DNA of 39,508 nucleotides, from the sequence record MN414250.1. One strand, given 5' to 3'. The position numbers and the translations under genes are program-made. Shown piece by piece: positions 1-39,508 of this stretch (position 1 is the stretch's first letter; every line of letters begins with the position of its first letter). The DNA comes from Escherichia phage RDN8.1. Under the pieces are notes generated by a model. That model saw only the letters and a program-made list of their open reading frames with translations. It made no database searches and was not told where the DNA came from.

Positions 1-639
1 CTGTACCAACTCAACGGCTACATCTTCGCTATGGAAGTTGGCGGTATGCGTGGTGGTTATGAAGACTCTACGCTGGAAGCCTTGGCTAAGATTGGTCGTA
101 AGTGGAAGGTCAACGAGTACGTCATTGAGGGTAACTTCGGTGATGGTATGTACCTTGAGCTATTCAAGCCTGTAGCGGCCCGTATCCATCCTGCGGCTGT
201 AACTGAAGTGAAGAGTAAGGGTCAGAAAGAACTCCGCATCTGTGACGTTCTGGAGCCTATCATGGGGTCTCACAGACTTATCGTTAACGCTGCTGCCATA
301 GTACAAGACTACCAGTCGGCCTCTGATAAGGATGGTGTTCGTAACCCTATCTACTCTCTCTTCTACCAGATGACACGTATCTCTCGTGAACGTGGAGCCT
401 TGGCACACGATGACAGACTTGATGCGCTGGCTATCGGTGTACAGTTCTTCGTTGAGTCTATGGCTAAGGATGCCAACAAAGGCGAACGTGAAGTCACCGA
501 GGAGTGGCTGGAGGAACAGATGGAGAACCCACGGAAAGGCTTCGAGTCCATCCACACTGAGTTCTGGGACAATGGGGTCCGGGTGACTCACGATACGGAC
601 GACGAGCTTGGACTAGGGTCGTACGTTGCGTTCCACTAG
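1..639 (+). CDS. Large terminase subunit (T7 gp19-like), C-terminal part; 5' end lies at 38024..39508 because the window is circularly permuted
   Basis: Reading frame continuous from window start; translation ([15 protein letters not shown]...LFYQMTRISRERGALAHDDRLDALA) matches recalled T7 gp19 C-terminus; 1..357 identical to 39152..39508. Confidence 0.93.
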   Translation: MYQLNGYIFAMEVGGMRGGYEDSTLEALAKIGRKWKVNEYVIEGNFGDGMYLELFKPVAARIHPAAVTEVKSKGQKELRICDVLEPIMGSHRLIVNAAAIVQDYQSASDKDGVRNPIYSLFYQMTRISRERGALAHDDRLDALAIGVQFFVESMAKDANKGEREVTEEWLEEQMENPRKGFESIHTEFWDNGVRVTHDTDDELGLGSYVAFH

Positions 640-7066: not shown

Positions 7067-8113
7067 ATGACTACTACCATCAAGACCAACCCGCACCGCG
7101 CTGTAGATTACTCTGAGTCTGGCGTTAAGAAGGCACTAGAAGCAGCCGGGTCTCTGGAAGCTGAAGTGAAGTATGACGGTGTGCGGTTGAATATTCCGGT
7201 CTTCCCTGATGGGCGAACTGAATGGTTAAGCCGTGAGTCAAAGACGCTTCCGGCCTTAGACCATTTGTCAACAGTTGGTCAGGACATCGGAGCTTGCCGT
7301 GCGTCCGACTGGCGATGGTTCCTGAAGCAAGCAGGACATGAAGTATCTGGCCTGATGATTGATGGCGAGGTGATGGTCAAGGGTGTAGACTTCAACACGT
7401 CCTCAGGTCTTATCCGCACCATGTGGTCTGACCGCAAGAACTACAAGTGGAACATGAACCCTAAGGCCGATATGGAGACCAAGAAGTCTAACAAGGTTCC
7501 ATTCCAGATTAGCCCTGAGTTCCTACAAGTGGTCGTCTACGGGGTCATCGACCTTAACGTCATCAACGACCCGAAAGCCGAAGGCCCTATCCATAGCGTA
7601 ACTCGCCTGAAGGCCGAAGCTATTGTCCCTCTCCTCCAGAAATACTTCCCGGAAATCGACTGGGTTCTATCGGAGAGTCATACAGTGTTTAGTCTTGAGT
7701 CCCTTCGTGATTTGTACGAGGAGAAACGGGCAGATGGACACGAGGGTCTGGTAGTTAAAGACCCACTTGGGCGCTGGAAGCGTGGTAAGAAGTCGGGCAT
7801 GTGGAAAATGAAGCCAAGCGAAGAGGCAGACGGTCACGTTGTTAGACCCGTATGGGGAACAGAAGGTCTCGCAAACGAAGGTCTAGTAATTGGTTTCGAC
7901 GTTATGCTTGAGAACGGGATGGAGGTCTCCGCAACTAACATTAGTCGCGCCCTTATGTCCGAGTTCACCGAGAACGTCAAGTCCGACCCTGACTACTATA
8001 AAGGCTGGGCTTGCCAGATTACCTACATGGAGGAGACACCTGATGGCTCATTGCGGCACCCGTCATTCGACCAATGGCGAGGGACTGAGGACAATCCTAC
8101 AGTCAAGATTTAA
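7067..8113 (+). CDS. ATP-dependent DNA ligase (T7 gp1.3 homologue)
   Basis: 348 aa; IKTNP, EVKYDGVR (adenylation lysine motif), GWACQITYMEETPDGSLRHPSF match recalled T7 ligase. Confidence 0.95.
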   Translation: MTTTIKTNPHRAVDYSESGVKKALEAAGSLEAEVKYDGVRLNIPVFPDGRTEWLSRESKTLPALDHLSTVGQDIGACRASDWRWFLKQAGHEVSGLMIDGEVMVKGVDFNTSSGLIRTMWSDRKNYKWNMNPKADMETKKSNKVPFQISPEFLQVVVYGVIDLNVINDPKAEGPIHSVTRLKAEAIVPLLQKYFPEIDWVLSESHTVFSLESLRDLYEEKRADGHEGLVVKDPLGRWKRGKKSGMWKMKPSEEADGHVVRPVWGTEGLANEGLVIGFDVMLENGMEVSATNISRALMSEFTENVKSDPDYYKGWACQITYMEETPDGSLRHPSFDQWRGTEDNPTVKI

Positions 8114-8525
8114 AGTAGACGAGAGGTCAGCCTCAGGGCTGTCCCTTCACTCTGGACGTAAGGTAGGCAGTAAGAAAGCATCCGGTTATTGGACAGTGAA
8201 CGTCAGGACGCCGTGGGGACGCAAGCACCTACAGGTCCATCGGGTAATCTGGGAGTTGACATATGGCCCAATACCAGATGGCATGGAGATTGACCACATT
8301 GACCGAGACCCTTCCAACAACAGGCTTTCCAATCTGCGACTGGTGACTCACTCCGAGAACAACCAGAACAAAGGACAGATGTCCACCAACACTACCGGAG
8401 AGCGCCACATCTCCAAGGTTAAAGGTCGAAAGCTCTATTGCATCAAGAAGGTGATTAACGGAGAGCGTGTGGTCCGGTACACCAAGACCATAGCCGAGGC
8501 GGTAGCCTTAAGAGATTCATTATAA
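8043..8525 (+). CDS. HNH endonuclease; start uncertain (first in-frame ATG 8043 lies inside ligase; GTG 8196 also possible)
   Basis: [44 protein letters not shown]; paralogous to 37591..38031. Confidence 0.65.
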   Translation: MAHCGTRHSTNGEGLRTILQSRFKVDERSASGLSLHSGRKVGSKKASGYWTVNVRTPWGRKHLQVHRVIWELTYGPIPDGMEIDHIDRDPSNNRLSNLRLVTHSENNQNKGQMSTNTTGERHISKVKGRKLYCIKKVINGERVVRYTKTIAEAVALRDSL

Positions 8526-9322: not shown

Positions 9323-9481
9323 ATGACTGAGGTTGAGAAGAAATACATCGTGGAGCTTGAGGGTCGCGTTCAGTCCTTCGAGGTTCCGGTGTACGCAAAG
9401 TCTCTTGAAGAGGCTACCCTGAAGTCCCAAGAGTATGAGGACGCTGGGTTTGTGGTCGGACGGATTCGTCCTGAGACCTAA
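9323..9481 (+). CDS. Gp2-like inhibitor of host RNA polymerase (start may be ATG 9305)
   Basis: [14 protein letters not shown]...[10 protein letters not shown] matches recalled T7 Gp2; AGGAG 9 nt upstream of ATG 9323. Confidence 0.7.
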
Positions 9482-9499
9482 ACTATCACTGTAGGATAG
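9477..9499 (+). promoter_or_regulatory. Phage RNAP promoter variant (CACTGTAGG core), phi2.5-like, predicted +1 at 9494
   Basis: CCTAAACTATCACTGTAGGATAG; overlaps Gp2 stop codon. Confidence 0.5.
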
Positions 9500-9538
9500 A
9501 CGTCCAGTTCGTAACTTTAAATTAGGAGATTTACACCG

Positions 9539-10237
9539 ATGGCTAAAGAGCAACTGAAGACTTTCACCACTCCGGTAGCTGGTATCGTTGAGCCTTACGC
9601 ATGGCTAAACAAAGCAGACACCAAGTTTACCGAGCGTGGTGAGCATAAGGTTAACCTGACTTTCAGTCTGGATGACCCGAAGGTACGCAAGATGATTGAC
9701 GTCTTGCAGAAGATTCACGACGATGCGTATGCGAAAGCACTCGCAGACCACGAGAAGAACCCGCCTCAGGTTCAGCGTGGCAAGAAGCCTATTGAACCAC
9801 GAGAAGGCGACATGCCGTGGATTGAGAACGGTGATGGCACTGTCACCCTGAAGTTTAAATGCTATGCGTCTTACCTGAAAGACGGCAAGTCCGAGCCTAT
9901 CGTATTACGGTTCTACGACACCGATGCTAAACTCATCCGTGACGTCCCGAATATTGGCACCGGGTCTAAGCTGAAAGTCAAGTTCAAAGTCCTGCCGTTC
10001 AAGTGGAACGCTGCGACTGGTGCGAGCGTTAAACTGCAACTCGAATCTGTGCTGCTGGTCGAACTCAAAGAGTGGTCCGGCGATGGCACTGGTGGTGATG
10101 GTGGCTGGGGTGATGACGAAGACATCGGGTCTGGTGGCTACAAGGCTTCGACCGATGGCGACTTCGGGTCTGACGACTTCGGCGGTGATGCTGATGGTCA
10201 GGACTCTGCGTCCGATGCTGGTGACTACGACTTCTAA
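9539..10237 (+). CDS. Single-stranded DNA-binding protein (T7 gp2.5 homologue)
   Basis: 232 aa; GSKLKVKFKVLPFKWNAATGASVKLQLESVLLVEL and acidic C-terminus ending DF match recalled T7 gp2.5. Confidence 0.95.
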   Translation: MAKEQLKTFTTPVAGIVEPYAWLNKADTKFTERGEHKVNLTFSLDDPKVRKMIDVLQKIHDDAYAKALADHEKNPPQVQRGKKPIEPREGDMPWIENGDGTVTLKFKCYASYLKDGKSEPIVLRFYDTDAKLIRDVPNIGTGSKLKVKFKVLPFKWNAATGASVKLQLESVLLVELKEWSGDGTGGDGGWGDDEDIGSGGYKASTDGDFGSDDFGGDADGQDSASDAGDYDF

Positions 10238-10239
10238 TC

Positions 10240-10692
10240 GTGGCTGCATGGACACCAAAACGGGGGCACTCTGTGGGTGCCTACCGCTCTGGACTTGAAG
10301 CCAAGAACCAGCAGTGGCTGGAACAGAACGGCGTCAAAGCGGAGTACGAAAGCCATTATATCAACTATGTGATTCCGGCTTCCGACCACAAGTACACACC
10401 AGACTTCATCCTTCCGAACGGAATCATCGTCGAGACCAAAGGTATCTTCGACAGTGAGGACCGTAAGAAGCATATGCTGGTGCGCGAGCAGCACCCTGAG
10501 CTGGACATCCGGTTCGTGTTCTCGTCCTCCCGCTCCAAGCTGTACAAAGGGTCCCCGACCACGTATGGCGCATGGTGCGAAAAGAACGGCTTTAAGTTTG
10601 CCGACAAGTTTATCCCGGTTGAGTGGCTGAAAGAGGCGACTGTACGTCTGCCCTCAGGTATACTCATCCCAAAGAAAGGAGTTAAGAAATGA
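10240..10692 (+). CDS. Endonuclease I / Holliday-junction resolvase (T7 gp3 homologue), GTG start
   Basis: VGAYRSGLE, YTPDFILPNGIIVETKG, REQHPELDIRFVFSSSRSKLYKGSPT match recalled T7 gp3. Confidence 0.9.
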   Translation: MAAWTPKRGHSVGAYRSGLEAKNQQWLEQNGVKAEYESHYINYVIPASDHKYTPDFILPNGIIVETKGIFDSEDRKKHMLVREQHPELDIRFVFSSSRSKLYKGSPTTYGAWCEKNGFKFADKFIPVEWLKEATVRLPSGILIPKKGVKK

Positions 10693-11141
10693 CTCGTAAA
10701 GCAATCATAGTTGACCTGACGTATGGTGGTGCATATTCAGACAACTTCAAGGTAGGACAGGAGGTCTTCGTTAAGTTCTCCCATAAGTCCCTCAGCCCTA
10801 GTGATGGAGACCTGTGGCGTGTGTCGCACGATGGTGTCAAGTGGCTGGACACAATGTATGGTCGCCGCCTGAAGTTTATCGCTTCTGGTGAGAAACCTCA
10901 AGTCCTGCCAGCTTCGAGCGTACCGCCTGTGACTGTGAAGCGTGAAGTCCTGACCATCGACAAGATTGGAGTGGGCCAGACGTTCATCGTTCATGGAAAG
11001 CCTGAAGAAGTGTACGTGAAGATTAGTAACTCACACGTCTTCAACCATAAGCGCCTCCAGATGCACGCTACGGACGCACAGCGCTTCACCCAACACCTGA
11101 ATCTCGTAATCGTTGAGCTGGTGGTGTACAATGGTAAGTAA
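10689..11141 (+). CDS. Hypothetical protein, 150 aa, inserted between endonuclease I and lysozyme
   Basis: ATG with AAAGGAG RBS; overlaps neighbours by a few nt; T7 has genes 3 and 3.5 adjacent. Confidence 0.6.
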   Translation: MTRKAIIVDLTYGGAYSDNFKVGQEVFVKFSHKSLSPSDGDLWRVSHDGVKWLDTMYGRRLKFIASGEKPQVLPASSVPPVTVKREVLTIDKIGVGQTFIVHGKPEEVYVKISNSHVFNHKRLQMHATDAQRFTQHLNLVIVELVVYNGK

Positions 11142-11589
11142 GGTTCAGTTCAAACCGCGTACAGTAACTGACGCAATCTTCGTCCACTGTAGTGCGACCC
11201 AGCCGTCTCAGGACATCGGGGTAGACACTATCCGCATGTGGCACAAGCAGCAGGGCTGGCTGGACGTAGGCTACCACTTCGTCATCAAGCGAGATGGCAC
11301 TGTGGAAGAGGGTCGCCCGGTCGATGTAGTAGGGTCCCACGTTAAGGATTGGAACTCCCGGTCCGTAGGCGTCTGCCTTGTTGGTGGAATCGACGCTAAG
11401 GGCAAGTTTGAAGCCAACTTCACGCCTGCTCAGATGAACGCTCTACGAAACAAGCTGGCTGAACTTAAGGCCCTGTATCCTCAGGCAGACATCAAGGCTC
11501 ACCACGACGTAGCACCAAAGGCCTGCCCAAGTTTTGACTTGCAGCGCTGGCTGAACACTAACGAAATGGTCACTTCCGACCGAGGCTAA
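11131..11589 (+). CDS. Lysozyme / N-acetylmuramoyl-L-alanine amidase (T7 gp3.5 homologue)
   Basis: VQFKPRTVTDAIFVHCSAT, GWLDVGYHFVIKRDGTVE, AHHDVAPKACPSFDL, C-terminal VTSDRG match recalled T7 lysozyme. Confidence 0.93.
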   Translation: MVSKVQFKPRTVTDAIFVHCSATQPSQDIGVDTIRMWHKQQGWLDVGYHFVIKRDGTVEEGRPVDVVGSHVKDWNSRSVGVCLVGGIDAKGKFEANFTPAQMNALRNKLAELKALYPQADIKAHHDVAPKACPSFDLQRWLNTNEMVTSDRG

Positions 11590-11607
11590 TAACAAAGGAG
11601 GCATTAT

Positions 11608-11799
11608 ATGTGCAACTTGGTAGAGCTTATCAGAGTTACCATGATTCAGAACGAGGTGCGCAACTATGCGTATCTTGACTTAATGCGGATACTTCAGGTC
11701 AGCAAGCCCGTGGTTAAGAAGCTGGTATTCGCGTGGATGTATCGGGCAACCGAGGAAAGGCTTCAATCAATCTTAAGAGGAGAAGACAACAATGATTAA
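11608..11799 (+). CDS. Hypothetical protein, 63 aa
   Basis: ATG with AAGGAGG RBS; T7 gene 3.8 position but not HNH-like. Confidence 0.5.
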   Translation: MCNLVELIRVTMIQNEVRNYAYLDLMRILQVSKPVVKKLVFAWMYRATEERLQSILRGEDNND

Positions 11800-12004
11800 A
11801 CTTATCGAATTTCTGGGTCGTCTGGTTGTGCGTGGCTATGCTCGCGCTGCGAGTGTTGAACGAAAGGTCGCCAGCGTGGAGGCGAAACTTGCTGAGGAAC
11901 TGGCGGCTAAGTCGCAGGCTGCACAACTGGCATCTCAGGACGCAAGCTGGGAAGCTAAACGTCTGGAGACCAAGGCCGCGCAGCTGAGCGCCTTCTTCAA
12001 GTAA
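11792..12004 (+). CDS. Hypothetical protein, 70 aa, hydrophobic N-terminus then Ala/Glu/Lys-rich helix
   Basis: ATG with GAGGAG RBS. Confidence 0.5.
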   Translation: MIKLIEFLGRLVVRGYARAASVERKVASVEAKLAEELAAKSQAAQLASQDASWEAKRLETKAAQLSAFFK

Positions 12005-12006
12005 CA

Positions 12007-12029
12007 ACTAAACTATCACCTTAGGGATG
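12007..12029 (+). promoter_or_regulatory. Degenerate phage promoter-like sequence (CACCTTAGGG core), upstream of gene 4
   Basis: CTAAACTATCACCTTAGGGATGG; two core mismatches. Confidence 0.3.
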
Positions 12030-12076
12030 GGACCATGAGTCCTGTCCCTTTGTTCGCATTTGTGATTAAGGAGTGA

Positions 12077-13777
<1,701 letters not shown>

Positions 13778-19291: not shown

Positions 19292-19532
19292 ATCAATCAG
19301 TAAGGCTTTCAAGAAAGTAGTGGGTGGCGCATTGAACACTGTTGGTCTGGGCCAAGCGCCTACGCCTAAAGCTGCCGACACTCAGGTGGCTGCGGCCCCG
19401 GTGGAAGTCCCTCAGGACCAAGTGACTGACGTTGAGACCGATGTGACCGAGACCGATAAGAAGAAAGTGAAGCGTTCCGGTAAGCGTAGCCTTCAGGTCT
19501 CTCGCACCTCTGGTGGCGGTATTTCTATTTGA
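19284..19532 (+). CDS. Gene 7.3-like tail-associated protein, GTG start
   Basis: AAGGAG RBS; MGK..K N-terminus and C-terminal SGGGISI match recalled T7 gp7.3. Confidence 0.65.
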   Translation: MGKSISKAFKKVVGGALNTVGLGQAPTPKAADTQVAAAPVEVPQDQVTDVETDVTETDKKKVKRSGKRSLQVSRTSGGGISI

Positions 19533-19945
19533 CCGGGTGCATCGAGTGGAAGTGGGCCAAATCCTCAGCAGGATACGGGCAGAAGCGTATAGACGGTAAG
19601 TTAGTGTATATGCACCGACTCGCTTACGCCGATGCGCATGGTCCAATACCAGACGGAATGCTCGTCCGTCATAAGTGTGATAATCCAGCGTGTTTCAACG
19701 TAAACCACTTAGAGTTAGGAACTCAGCGTGATAACATGCAGGACGCCTCAAAGCGTGGTCGCGTCAATAAAACCAAAATGGCTAGAGGTGAAGACCAAGG
19801 GTTATCGGTTTTAACAGAAGACCTTGTTCGAGAAATCCGCAAGTCAACCGTAGGTTGTACAACACTGGCTCGTGAGCTAGGAGTTAGCAAGTCTACAGTT
19901 TTGCGTGTTCGCCAAGGTAAAACATGGAGGCACGTAGATGGCTGA
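19529..19945 (+). CDS. HNH endonuclease (T7 gene 7.7 position), probable TTG start
   Basis: CIEWKWAKSSAGYGQ...YMHRLAY...HKCDNPACFNVNHLELGTQRDN. Confidence 0.7.
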   Translation: MTGCIEWKWAKSSAGYGQKRIDGKLVYMHRLAYADAHGPIPDGMLVRHKCDNPACFNVNHLELGTQRDNMQDASKRGRVNKTKMARGEDQGLSVLTEDLVREIRKSTVGCTTLARELGVSKSTVLRVRQGKTWRHVDG

Positions 19946-37150: not shown

Positions 37151-37594
37151 ATGCTCGAACTTTTACGTAAAGCGCTCCCGTGGTTAGCGGCAGGACTCCT
37201 GTTCTGTTCAGGCTACTGGGTGGCAGACACAAAGTGGGAGGCGAAAGTAAGCAATGAGTACATCACTAAATTACAAGCAGAGGACAGAACGCGCACTTCG
37301 GTACAGCGAGAGGTGTCACGTATTGCAGCGGACTACCAAGACAAGCTGTCCGCGCTGGAAGGCTCTACTGATAGGATTATTGCTGACCTTAACCGCGATA
37401 ACAAGCGGTTGCGCATCAGAGTCCAACCTACCAGTGGAACGGTCCAAAGTGACGGTCGATGCGTCATTGATGGTTACGCCGACCTTGATGAGCGAGATGC
37501 TAAACGTCTTATCGCCATCGGACTGAAGGGCGACGAGTGGATTAAAGCCTTGCAGGGGACCATCAGGGCCTTGCAGCAGGAGAAGGAGAAATGA
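37151..37594 (+). CDS. Rz-like i-spanin (T7 gp18.5 homologue)
   Basis: 147 aa; N-terminal TM LPWLAAGLLF; EGSTDRIIADLNRDNKRLRIRV, DERDAKRLIA match recalled T7 Rz. Confidence 0.85.
   Translation: MLELLRKALPWLAAGLLFCSGYWVADTKWEAKVSNEYITKLQAEDRTRTSVQREVSRIAADYQDKLSALEGSTDRIIADLNRDNKRLRIRVQPTSGTVQSDGRCVIDGYADLDERDAKRLIAIGLKGDEWIKALQGTIRALQQEKEK
37254..37526 (+). CDS. Rz1-like o-spanin lipoprotein embedded in Rz in the +1 frame; start uncertain (possibly TTG about 37323)
   Basis: Embedded ORF with hydrophobic segment ALLIGLLLTLTAI and lipobox-like TSGC. Confidence 0.45.
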   Translation: MSTSLNYKQRTERALRYSERCHVLQRTTKTSCPRWKALLIGLLLTLTAITSGCASESNLPVERSKVTVDASLMVTPTLMSEMLNVLSPSD

Positions 37595-38031
37595 TGCTCA
37601 GTGATTCGTATGTCTATGATGAGTCCAGTAAGTCTGGCCTGAAGTCCCTGCGTTCTGGTAAGGATGTGGGGTGTGTGGGAAACCACGGGTATTATCAGGT
37701 AGGAACTCGACGTCATGGACTCCTGCTGGCCCATAGAGTCGTCTGGGAGCTAACCAACGGTCCTATACCAGAAGGTATGGAGATTGACCATATTGACCGC
37801 TGCCGGACTAACAACAGGCTTGACAACCTCCGGCTAGTTACTTCAAGCGAGAACTCCTGCAACACCTCAGGACATTCTGACTCAAAGACTGGAGTTAAGA
37901 ACATATCGTTCCATCAGAATGGCTACGCTATCGAGGTCATGCGTAAGGGAGTCCGTATGCGAACAACACGTCCTACTTTAGAGGAGGCTATCTCTGTCCG
38001 GGACCTAATGCTGGAGGGACTATATGTCTAA
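37591..38031 (+). CDS. HNH endonuclease inserted between Rz and terminase
   Basis: AGGAG RBS; [41 protein letters not shown]; paralogue of 8043..8525. Confidence 0.8.
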
Positions 38032-39508
38032 GAAAACACCTGCTGAAAGACAGGCTGAAATGACCCAAAGGATGAGGGACGACTTCGTGTTCTTCATCTT
38101 TGTTCTCTGGAAAGCGCTGAGCCTTCCGGTTCCAACTAGATGTCAGATAGATATGTGTAAGAAGCTGGCTGCTGGCGATAACCGACGATTCATCCTTCAG
38201 GCGTTCCGAGGTATTGGCAAATCGTTTCTGACCTGTGGTTTCGTGGTCTGGAAATTATGGAACAACCCAGACTTAAAGTTCATGATTGTGTCGGCCTCAA
38301 AGGAGCGAGCCGATGCGAACTCCATCTTCATCAAGCGAATCATCGACCTAATGCCTCAGCTTCAGGAACTCAAACCTAAGCAGGGACAGCGAGATGCGGT
38401 TATCAGCTTCGACGTAGGGCCAGCCAAGCCAGACCACTCACCTTCGGTTAAGTCCGTTGGTATCACTGGTCAGTTGACTGGTAGTCGTGCTGACATCCTG
38501 ATTGCCGATGACGTGGAGGTTCCGAACAACTCAGCGACTCAGGCCGCACGAGACCGTCTGTCAGAGCTTGTGAAAGAGTTCGACGCTATTCTGAAGCCGG
38601 GAGGTACAATCATCTATCTGGGTACTCCTCAGAACGAGATGACTTTGTATCGTGAGCTGGAAGGCCGTGGGTACACCACTACTATCTGGCCTGCTCGTTA
38701 TCCACGCGACAGGAAGGACTGGCAGTCTTACGGCGACCGTCTGGCGCCGATGCTTCAGGCGGAGCTGGAAGAGGACCCTGAGTCCTTCTACTGGCGTCCG
38801 ACCGATGAAGTTCGATTCGACGATACTGACCTGAAGGAACGCGAGCTGTCCTACGGTAAAGCTGGCTTCGCTCTACAGTTCATGCTTAACCCGAACCTGA
38901 GTGATGCCGAGAAGTACCCTCTGAAGCTCCGTGACCTTATCGTAGCAGACTTGGACCCAGCGTCCAGCCCAATGGTCTACCAATGGTTGCCGAACCCTCA
39001 GAACAAGCGTGAGGACGTTCCTAACGTTGGACTCATGGGTGACTCATACCACACGTATCAGACTGTAGGTTCTGCCTTCAGTTCGTACACCCAGAAGATT
39101 CTGGTCATAGACCCTAGTGGTCGTGGCAAGGATGAAACTGGCTATGCGGTACTGTACCAACTCAACGGCTACATCTTCGCTATGGAAGTTGGCGGTATGC
39201 GTGGTGGTTATGAAGACTCTACGCTGGAAGCCTTGGCTAAGATTGGTCGTAAGTGGAAGGTCAACGAGTACGTCATTGAGGGTAACTTCGGTGATGGTAT
39301 GTACCTTGAGCTATTCAAGCCTGTAGCGGCCCGTATCCATCCTGCGGCTGTAACTGAAGTGAAGAGTAAGGGTCAGAAAGAACTCCGCATCTGTGACGTT
39401 CTGGAGCCTATCATGGGGTCTCACAGACTTATCGTTAACGCTGCTGCCATAGTACAAGACTACCAGTCGGCCTCTGATAAGGATGGTGTTCGTAACCCTA
39501 TCTACTCT
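38024..39508 (+). CDS. Large terminase subunit (T7 gp19 homologue), N-terminal part; runs off the window end and continues at 1..639
   Basis: ATG 38024 overlaps HNH stop; [13 protein letters not shown] (Walker A), [55 protein letters not shown] match recalled T7 gp19. Confidence 0.95.
39152..39508. repeat. Exact copy of window positions 1..357 (assembly / circular-permutation overlap inside the terminase gene)
   Basis: Direct comparison of both ends; reading frame preserved across the join. Confidence 0.95.

What the first reader, a model, noticed from the sequence alone, without database searches (positions are those of the whole stretch)
10689..11141. Extra 150-aa gene between endonuclease I and lysozyme
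A well-formed ORF (AAAGGAG RBS, coupled to both neighbours) sits where T7 has genes 3 and 3.5 directly adjacent. The protein has no motif I recognise. It lies in the DNA-metabolism/host-interaction block and may be a lineage-specific accessory function.
Basis: seen in the sequence. Interest (0 to 1): 0.5.

Follow-up and report, generated by a model that had tools for sequence, protein, structure and literature searches.

The report
Modular K1F-type gene 3.2 protein
The extra gene between endonuclease I and lysozyme is real. It is the uncharacterised "gene 3.2" of K1F-like (Kayfunavirus) phages: a small protein with a near-invariant C-terminal beta-barrel and an N-terminal barrel that relatives swap or lack, so it is probably an accessory binding factor, but its function is untested.

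Summary
The ORF is confirmed: 10689..11141 (+), 150 aa, with RBS AAAGGAG at 10675-10681. Its ATG overlaps the gene 3 stop (ATGA). Its last 11 nt overlap the gene 3.5 start at 11131.

The window is a complete Kayfunavirus genome, and the ORF is the homologue of K1F/EcoDS1 "gp3.2" (PHROG 16385). The gene is catalogued but never characterised. T7 has no counterpart, and its genes 3 and 3.5 abut.

The family is tiny: 16 clusters among 1.84 billion representatives. It always sits directly after endonuclease I in ~40-kb T7-like phages.

The protein has two parts.
- **C-terminal core (residues ~84-150):** almost invariant, under strong purifying selection (dN/dS 0.03-0.25), with the motif Y..SNSH.FN....QMH.T...RF. 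In about 100 of 219 phage records it occurs alone as a 74-aa protein.
- **N-terminal module (residues 1-65):** a ~200-nt cassette. It comes in at least five sequence-unrelated types, can be absent or doubled, and partly tracks host genus.

AlphaFold models give SH3-like small beta-barrels for both parts, joined by a proline-rich linker. There is no catalytic motif and no match in Pfam, NCBIfam, PADLOC or PDB sequences.

The best reading is a non-enzymatic binding or adaptor protein for host interaction. That mechanism is inferred, not shown. Interest is modest.

The parts
9477..9497 (+). Phage-RNAP promoter (CCTAAACTATCACTGTAGGAT) upstream of gene 2.5. It heads the transcription unit 2.5-3-3.2-3.5-3.7. 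The next promoter copy is at 12007.
   Evidence: It belongs to an 11-copy repeat family with consensus CTAAACTATCACTATAGG. No promoter copy and no convincing terminator lies between 9497 and 12007.
10240..10692 (+). Gene 3, endonuclease I (context). Its stop overlaps the start of gene 3.2.
   Evidence: PF05367, E 1e-80; PHROG 945.
10675..10681 (+). Ribosome-binding site AAAGGAG of gene 3.2, lying inside the end of gene 3.
   Evidence: Read directly from the sequence. The same AAAGGAG-type site is tabulated for the gp3.2 homologue ORF18 in the Citrobacter SH phages (PMC4925675).
10689..11141 (+). Gene 3.2 coding sequence (150 aa plus stop).
   Evidence: ORF; PHROG 16385 E 5e-52 and PHROG 15211 E 1.7e-39; 92% identical to a protein of Enterobacter phage 03_vB_Eclo_IJM; purifying selection.
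10689..10883 (+). N-terminal exchangeable module, type A (residues 1-65). Predicted five-stranded SH3-like barrel.
10884..10937 (+). Proline-rich linker (residues 66-83, SGEKPQVLPASSVPPVTV). It is predicted to be flexible and marks where similarity to other gene 3.2 types resumes.
   Evidence: pLDDT below 60 in both models. Megablast matches to other types begin at query nt 202-209. S77-V81 are invariant in the long forms. The linker is absent from the 74-aa forms.
10938..11138 (+). C-terminal constant module (residues 84-150) with the invariant motif G..F......Y...SNSH.FN....QMH.T...RF. Predicted SH3-like barrel. Its last codons carry the RBS and start of gene 3.5.
11131..11589 (+). Gene 3.5, N-acetylmuramoyl-L-alanine amidase / T7-type lysozyme (context). 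It starts 11 nt before the gene 3.2 stop.
   Evidence: PF01510 E 2.6e-17 and PHROG 822 E 1.3e-80. Its N-terminus MVSKVQF matches K1F gp3.5.

Best explanation
The ORF is the Kayfunavirus gene 3.2.

**Shown**
- It is a real protein-coding gene. It lies in the unit that starts at the phage promoter at 9477 and is positioned for translational coupling to endonuclease I upstream and lysozyme downstream.
- The protein has two independently evolving parts joined by a flexible proline-rich linker.
- The C-terminal ~67-residue core is nearly invariant across phages of many enterobacterial genera. It can exist alone as a 74-aa protein.
- The N-terminal ~65-residue module is a ~200-nt cassette. Relatives replace it with sequence-unrelated alternatives, delete it or double it.

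**Predicted**
- Both parts fold as SH3-like small beta-barrels. No catalytic motif is recognisable.

**Inferred**
- It is a non-enzymatic binding protein that acts on the host during the DNA-metabolism phase of infection.
- The constant barrel contacts a partner that is conserved across hosts, either a core host machine or a conserved phage protein.
- The exchangeable barrel adds, or retargets to, a strain- or genus-specific partner such as a variable host factor or defence component.

That makes it an accessory host-takeover or counter-defence adaptor or inhibitor. The identity and architecture are near certain. The mechanism is a best guess.
For: **Identity and synteny**
- PHROG 16385/15211 hits, and homology to K1F and EcoDS1 gp3.2.
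- The gene always lies directly after endonuclease I, in 23 IMG/VR loci and in the most distant members found.

**Real gene**
- The C core has dN/dS 0.03-0.25 at dS 0.4-1.0.
- There is no Rfam element in 9400-12200.

**Accessory and lineage-restricted**
- Absent from T7.
- Only 255 clusters at 90% identity and 16 at 50% identity in the two protein databases, all from ~40-kb T7-like contigs.

**Modularity**
- The alignment shows N types A/A2, B, C, D and E, an N-less form, and tandem forms such as P0034, P0078 and P0122.
- Profile comparison finds no homology between types except A with A2.
- Nucleotide identity drops from 80-100% in the flanks to undetectable across 10700-10890.
- The phages closest in their flanks (L009-L014) carry the N-less 74-aa form.
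- Among type-A phages the N module has dS 0.09-0.19 against 0.39-0.73 for the C part. This indicates recent lateral spread. Its dN/dS is higher, at 0.35-0.76.

**Fold**
- Variation within type A is highest in the loops that correspond to the RT and n-Src ligand-binding loops of SH3 domains: 1.7 bits, against 1.0 in the strands and 0.2 in the C core.

**Host bias of the N types**
- Type A: 7 of 9 records are Enterobacter phages.
- Type A2: 20 of 21 are Salmonella phages.
- Type B: 39 of 56 are Escherichia phages.
Against: - No experiment, interaction partner or expression data exists. The literature searches found nothing on function.
- The host association of the N types is confounded by phage phylogeny and by sampling. 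For example, the Salmonella records listed carry series-like names and identical match statistics, which suggests near-duplicate isolates.
- Loops vary more than strands in any protein, so the entropy pattern is weak evidence.
- dN/dS in the N module stays below 1 and rests on 4-14 substitutions per class.
- Deletion derivatives of the N module (P0125, P0135, P0138) show that it is easily lost. That fits a dispensable appendage as well as it fits a targeting domain.
Confidence: 0.4

Rival explanations
1. It is a nucleic-acid-binding accessory factor of phage DNA replication or recombination. On this view it is a small basic SH3-like barrel, comparable to the Sso7d/Cren7, integrase C-terminal or KOW/Tudor-like classes. 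It would bind DNA or RNA alongside SSB and endonuclease I.
Against: The basic charge is not conserved. The Providencia-type C module has pI 7.4, and N types B, C and D are acidic with pI 4.8-5.3. T7 replicates without such a factor. This view does not explain why an N-terminal cassette is exchanged so often. The fold matches are weak.
Confidence: 0.2
2. It is a dedicated partner or regulator of a neighbouring phage enzyme. It might moderate endonuclease I, or modulate the lysozyme and its inhibition of the phage RNA polymerase. The constant module would bind the phage protein.
For: Adjacency to gene 3 with overlapping stop and start is invariable in all loci examined, including the distant ones. 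The gene usually overlaps the start of gene 3.5. Near-invariance of the C module across many host genera fits a phage-encoded partner.
Against: T7 endonuclease I and lysozyme work without it. C-module alleles recombine independently of the flanking gene 3 and 3.5 alleles. An HNH gene in STP-SP3, or two other ORFs in PSTCR2, can separate it from gene 3.5. The hypothesis offers no role for the variable N module.
Confidence: 0.15
3. Only the 74-aa C module is functional. The N modules would be neutral passengers, such as fused remnants of small ORFs or recombination debris at a mosaic joint stimulated by homing endonucleases. They would have no function of their own.
For: About 100 of 219 phage records carry the C module alone. 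Truncated N modules exist (P0125, P0135, P0138). dN/dS in type A is 0.35-0.76, compatible with relaxed constraint. HNH homing endonucleases occur at this locus in relatives, and there are three HNH-type ORFs in this genome.
Against: Type A folds with high confidence into a compact barrel, with pLDDT about 90. Core strand positions are conserved within the type, and A and A2 remain recognisably homologous at about 40% identity. The reading frame is preserved in every type, including the tandem forms. Neutral inserts of ~200 nt would be expected to decay in a 39-kb streamlined genome.
Confidence: 0.12

Closest known systems
gp3.2 of coliphage K1F, EcoDS1 and Cronobacter phage Dev2 (PHROG 16385 / 15211; 'hypothetical protein')
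   Same: Same position between gene 3 and gene 3.5. The C-terminal 83 residues are 82-96% identical. The linker and the overlap with the gene 3.5 start are also the same.
   Different: K1F and EcoDS1 carry a sequence-unrelated N module, type B (GWPxGTIV...). Dev2 and the SH3-SH5 phages have no N module at all (74-75 aa). The window has the rarer type A, otherwise seen mainly in Enterobacter cloacae phages. None has an assigned function.
SH3-like small beta-barrel domains (eukaryotic SH3, FeoA / DtxR C-terminal domain, EF-P domain I, KOW, Tudor)
   Same: Both predicted domains are five-stranded barrels of ~60 residues. Their best structural matches are these classes.
Accessory-gene hotspots of phages that hold host-takeover and counter-defence genes (the concept of Silas et al., bioRxiv 10.1101/2023.04.06.535777; examples are T7 ocr, gp4.5 and gp5.9)
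   Same: A fixed genomic position between conserved genes carries fast-changing, lineage-restricted small ORFs of unknown function. In relatives the same slot also holds an HNH gene or other small ORFs.
   Different: Here the variation lies inside one gene: a constant domain plus a swapped domain, rather than whole-gene replacement. The protein's sequence motifs do not appear in that study's supplementary files. No counter-defence activity has been shown.

Membership tests
K1F-type gp3.2 family (PHROG 16385 / 15211) | Significant sequence match to the family profile | tested here: met
   PHROG 16385 E 5e-52 over residues 52-150. PHROG 15211 E 1.7e-39 over residues 81-150. 82-96% identity to K1F and EcoDS1 gp3.2 over the C part.
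K1F-type gp3.2 family (PHROG 16385 / 15211) | Position immediately downstream of endonuclease I and upstream of the gene 3.5 amidase in a ~40-kb T7-like genome | tested here: met
   The window shows this order. So do K1F, 23 IMG/VR loci and the distant members.
K1F-type gp3.2 family (PHROG 16385 / 15211) | Invariant C-terminal motif Y..SNSH.FN....QMH.T...RF | tested here: met
   Present at residues 109-133 of the query. These columns are invariant in alignments A2 and A3.
SH3-like small beta-barrel fold | Five-stranded barrel of about 60 residues with structural similarity to known SH3-like domains | tested here: inconclusive
Canonical SH3 / bacterial SH3b cell-wall-binding domains | Match to the Pfam SH3 or SH3b sequence profiles | tested here: not met
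   No Pfam family matches at E up to 1, either for the query or for three other family members.
Canonical SH3 / bacterial SH3b cell-wall-binding domains | Binding of proline-rich peptide or peptidoglycan ligand | not testable with these tools
   This needs binding assays.
Known anti-phage defence or counter-defence proteins | Homology to a catalogued defence-system protein or to a tested accessory gene | tested here: not met
   PADLOC gives no hit at E up to 1. The motif is absent from the supplementary files of the accessory-gene screen. No anti-defence profile library was available.
HNH / homing endonucleases (frequent small inserts in T7-like genomes) | HNH motif or Pfam HNH hit | tested here: not met
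   No Pfam hit for the query. By contrast, the ORF inserted after gene 3.2 in Salmonella phage STP-SP3 hits HNH_3 at E 1e-14.

The most novel reading that the evidence does not exclude
Gene 3.2 encodes a cassette-retargetable intracellular adaptor. A constant SH3-like effector barrel engages a conserved host machine. Phages exchange the N-terminal barrel by recombination in order to recognise strain-specific host proteins or immune sensors. This would be an intracellular analogue of the domain swapping seen in receptor-binding proteins, and the N-module repertoire would be a catalogue of new host- or defence-binding domains.
Probability: 0.2. Interest if true: 0.6.

Novelty: new member of a known kind. 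Interest (0 to 1): 0.3.

Why it matters
As a gene it is ordinary: a catalogued hypothetical protein of K1F-like phages. Its value lies in the architecture found here. An almost invariant 8-kDa barrel is joined to a swappable barrel at a fixed, recombination-prone slot. That points to a small, experimentally tractable protein at the phage-host interface. Kayfunaviruses are widely isolated for therapy against E. coli K1, Enterobacter, Salmonella Typhi and Citrobacter. If the N modules control growth on particular strains or evasion of particular defences, they would help predict and engineer host range. The constant module would identify a conserved host or phage target.

Tried and rejected
- **Sequence-family searches.** Pfam at E up to 1, NCBIfam, PADLOC, and PDB sequences with a single sequence and with two profiles gave nothing usable. 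The only PDB hits were RNA helicase HAS1 at E 0.38-1.7, taken as chance.
- **Deep HMMER search.** A profile search of 1.84 billion representatives found only the family itself. The one outside hit was a spurious match to a trypanosome FAZ1 repeat protein (P0131).
- **Internal duplication.** The idea that the N and C domains, or the N types, are diverged copies of one another gets no support from hhalign, except A with A2. A shared fold is still possible.
- **RNA element or promoter.** An RNA element or embedded phage promoter as the cause of C-part conservation was rejected. There is no Rfam hit, no promoter copy between 9497 and 12007, and synonymous sites diverge freely. Only the last ~20 nt serve as the RBS and start of gene 3.5.
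- **Foreign origin.** GC content is not clearly deviant: the N module has GC 0.50 and GC3 0.55, against 0.52 for the genome.
- **Literature.** Searches for 'gp3.2', K1F and the peptide motif, and the accessory-gene screen with its supplements, found no functional data. The K1F genome paper is not in the held library.
- **Zinc site.** The cysteine pattern in K1F's type-B module suggested a possible zinc site. The cysteines are not conserved within type B.

Full report
**1. Observation**

- AAAGGAG lies at 10675-10681, 7 nt upstream of the ATG.
- The ATG overlaps the TGA of the preceding gene (ATGA, 10689-10692).
- The preceding gene (10240..10692) is endonuclease I (PF05367, E 1e-80). The following gene is a T7-type amidase/lysozyme (PF01510; PHROG 822, E 1e-80).
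- By comparison with K1F gp3.5 (MVSKVQF...), the lysozyme starts at ATG 11131. That is 11 nt before the TAA of the ORF.
- T7 genes 3 and 3.5 abut at 10706. HMMs of every module of the new protein find nothing in T7's six reading frames.

**2. What the window is**

The window is a complete T7-like genome with an exact 357-bp terminal repeat.
- It is about 90% identical over most of its length to many Kayfunavirus (K1F-like) phages of E. coli, Salmonella, Citrobacter and Enterobacter.
- Eleven copies of a phage-polymerase promoter (CTAAACTATCACTATAGG) are present. One lies at 9477 before gene 2.5 and the next at 12007 before the primase-helicase.
- Between them there is no further promoter copy and no convincing terminator. 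The ORF therefore lies in the unit 2.5-3-3.2-3.5-3.7.

**3. Identity**

The ORF is the counterpart of "gene 3.2" as annotated in K1F, EcoDS1 and Dev2.
- It matches PHROG 16385 (E 5e-52) and PHROG 15211 (E 1.7e-39). Both have unknown function.
- Nothing matches in Pfam (E up to 1), NCBIfam, PADLOC or the sequences of solved structures.
- The family is very narrow. There are 255 clusters at 90% identity in a 5.8-billion-protein collection. There are only 16 clusters at 50% identity among 1.84 billion representatives, one of them a spurious repeat protein.
- Members whose source contig is long enough to judge come from ~39-41-kb T7-like contigs.
- Even the most divergent members keep the order endonuclease I, 3.2, amidase. 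These are the Providencia phage PSTCR2 type at ~35% identity and two metagenomic forms.
- Full-text searches for gp3.2 with K1F, and for the peptide motif, found no functional study.

**4. Anatomy: a constant and an exchangeable module**

Only 8 of 70 megablast hits and 35 of 219 tblastn hits cover the whole gene. The rest begin at nucleotide ~202-209, which is residue ~68.

The C-terminal part:
- Alignment shows that residues ~70-150 are almost invariant (47 invariant columns).
- When the distant members are included, the conserved core reduces to G..F......Y...SNSH.FN....QMH.T...RF.

The N-terminal ~65 residues:
- They fall into at least five types: A/A2 (this window), B (K1F), C, D and E.
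- hhalign cannot relate these types to each other or to the C module, except A with A2.

Other forms:
- About 100 deposited phages carry the C module alone as a 74-76-aa protein (Dev2, SH3-SH5, CLB_P1 and others).
- A few proteins carry two N modules in tandem: B+A, A+C or B+C (P0078, P0034, P0122).
- Others are deletion derivatives (P0125, P0135, P0138).

Evidence that the N module is a cassette:
- At the DNA level the flanks are 80-100% identical in all relatives, while 10700-10890 has no detectable similarity except in the few type-A phages.
- The phages closest to the window in genes 3 and 3.5 (96-100%) carry the N-less form. The best match for the N module (L026), the C module (L029, L003) and the flanks (L009-L014) are three different sets of phages.
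- This is fine-scale mosaicism at a fixed slot.
- Every tblastn hit to any N type lies directly after endonuclease I. The modules are not seen elsewhere in phage genomes.

**5. Selection**

- The C core is under strong purifying selection: dN/dS 0.03-0.25 with dS 0.4-1.0. It is therefore a functional protein and not just conserved DNA. No Rfam element was found.
- Among the four type-A genes, the N module has much lower dS (0.09-0.19) than the attached C part (0.39-0.73). This indicates recent lateral spread of the cassette. Its dN/dS is higher, at 0.35-0.76, but based on few substitutions.
- Within types A and A2, positional entropy is highest in two loops, residues 8-24 and 33-41 (1.7 bits). 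It is intermediate in the strands (1.0) and minimal in the C core (0.2).

**6. Predicted structure**

- With a 62-sequence alignment, AlphaFold2 models residues 1-65 confidently (pLDDT about 90) as a five-stranded barrel. The linker and C part were poorly modelled there, probably because the aligned C-part sequences are nearly identical.
- Re-modelling residues 68-150 with the divergent relatives included gave pLDDT 88-94 for the core: five strands plus a short helix.
- In BFVD the hits are the family itself plus many uncharacterised 70-85-aa phage proteins.
- The linker (SGEKPQVLPASSVPPVTV) has low confidence in both models and is proline-rich.
- The variable loops of type A correspond in position to the RT and n-Src loops, which form the ligand site of SH3 domains. 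This is suggestive only, because loops vary most in any fold.
- The Kayfunavirus C module is basic (pI 9.5-9.7), but the Providencia version is neutral (7.4). N types B, C and D are acidic (4.8-5.3) while type A is basic (9.45).

**7. Host distribution**

In the deposited phages:

| N type | Phage records | Host bias |
|---|---|---|
| A | 9 | 7 Enterobacter cloacae phages, 2 Escherichia |
| A2 | 21 | 20 Salmonella, 1 Enterobacter |
| B | 56 | 39 Escherichia |
| C | 27 | mixed |
| D | 2 | 1 Escherichia, 1 Dickeya phage (host given as Pectobacterium) |

This fits a host-related role for the N module. It is confounded by phage phylogeny and by what look like batches of near-identical isolates.

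**8. Interpretation**

Firmly established:
- It is a real, lineage-restricted accessory gene, K1F-type gene 3.2.
- It encodes a constant module that can function alone, plus an optional, recombinationally exchanged module.

Predicted:
- Both modules are small SH3-like barrels without a recognisable catalytic motif.

The most economical mechanistic reading has three steps, all inferred.
- The protein is a non-enzymatic binder.
- The constant barrel is invariant across phages of Escherichia, Salmonella, Enterobacter, Citrobacter, Cronobacter, Klebsiella, Hafnia and others. Its partner should therefore be equally conserved: a core host machine or a phage protein.
- The exchangeable barrel would engage something that differs between hosts.

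I rate this adaptor or host-interaction model at about 0.4. The rivals are:
- a nucleic-acid-binding accessory of replication or recombination (0.2; weakened by the non-conserved charge);
- a regulator of the neighbouring endonuclease I or of lysozyme/RNA polymerase (0.15; weakened by independent recombination of alleles and by T7's independence from such a factor);
- a functional C module with neutral N-terminal passengers (0.12; weakened by the well-folded, frame-preserving, type-conserved N domains).

**9. Novelty and verdict**

However, the gene is the norm for its genus and has carried a name in K1F since that genome was annotated. It is a new member, with the rarer N type A, of a known but uncharacterised family. 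Neither my literature searches nor the database annotations I saw mention the constant-plus-cassette architecture or the double SH3-like prediction. It makes a tractable hypothesis, but nothing here is very surprising for a T7-like accessory slot. Interest is 0.3.

Noticed in passing
window 1-357 and 39152-39508: An exact 357-bp direct terminal repeat. The window is therefore a complete linear T7-like (Kayfunavirus) genome.
   Followed up: partly
window 734, 3426, 6487, 8586, 9477, 12007, 18287, 21502, 22537, 26754, 34020 (start positions): Eleven copies of a phage RNA-polymerase promoter with consensus (A/C)CT(A/T)AACTATCAC(T/C)(A/G/T)TAGG. Four of them share a further ~25-nt conserved upstream stretch (repeat family D5: 707, 3399, 18260, 26727).
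   Followed up: partly
window 7890-8525, 19529-19945, 37591-38031: Three ORFs with HNH_3-type homing-endonuclease motifs (GPIPDGM..DH.D....N). They share 20-130-nt repeats with one another (repeat families D4 and D11). Such genes may contribute to the local mosaicism.
   Followed up: partly
L030 (Salmonella phage STP-SP3) 1916-2365: In this relative a 149-aa HNH homing endonuclease (Pfam HNH_3, E 1e-14) is inserted between gene 3.2 and the lysozyme. The 3-to-3.5 interval is therefore an insertion hotspot.
   Followed up: yes
L002 (Providencia phage PSTCR2) 2330-3362: Three ORFs lie between endonuclease I and the endolysin. They are a divergent gene 3.2 homologue (152 aa), an unmatched 117-aa ORF with a beta-rich N-terminal part and an acidic proline-rich tail, and a 79-aa homologue of gp3.7 (PHROG 1950).
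   Followed up: partly
window 11113-11133: The ORF lister starts the amidase at TTG 11113. Comparison with K1F gp3.5 indicates ATG 11131 as the real start. The last codons of gene 3.2 (GAGCTGGTGGTGTACAATGG) then double as its ribosome-binding region.
   Followed up: yes
window 11608-11799 and 11792-12004: Two small ORFs lie between the lysozyme and the primase-helicase. One is 63 aa (PHROG 9565, unknown function). The other is 70 aa (gp3.7, PHROG 1950; DUF5471 just below the Pfam cut-off). Neither is characterised.
   Followed up: partly
L026 (OP272492) and L027 (OR594184), annotation tables: Several deposited relatives are poorly annotated around this locus. Examples are SSB and endonuclease I merged or split, the lysozyme broken into fragments, and one gp3.2 cluster representative (P0084) named 'endolysin' because of a frameshift fusion. 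Database names here are unreliable.
   Followed up: no
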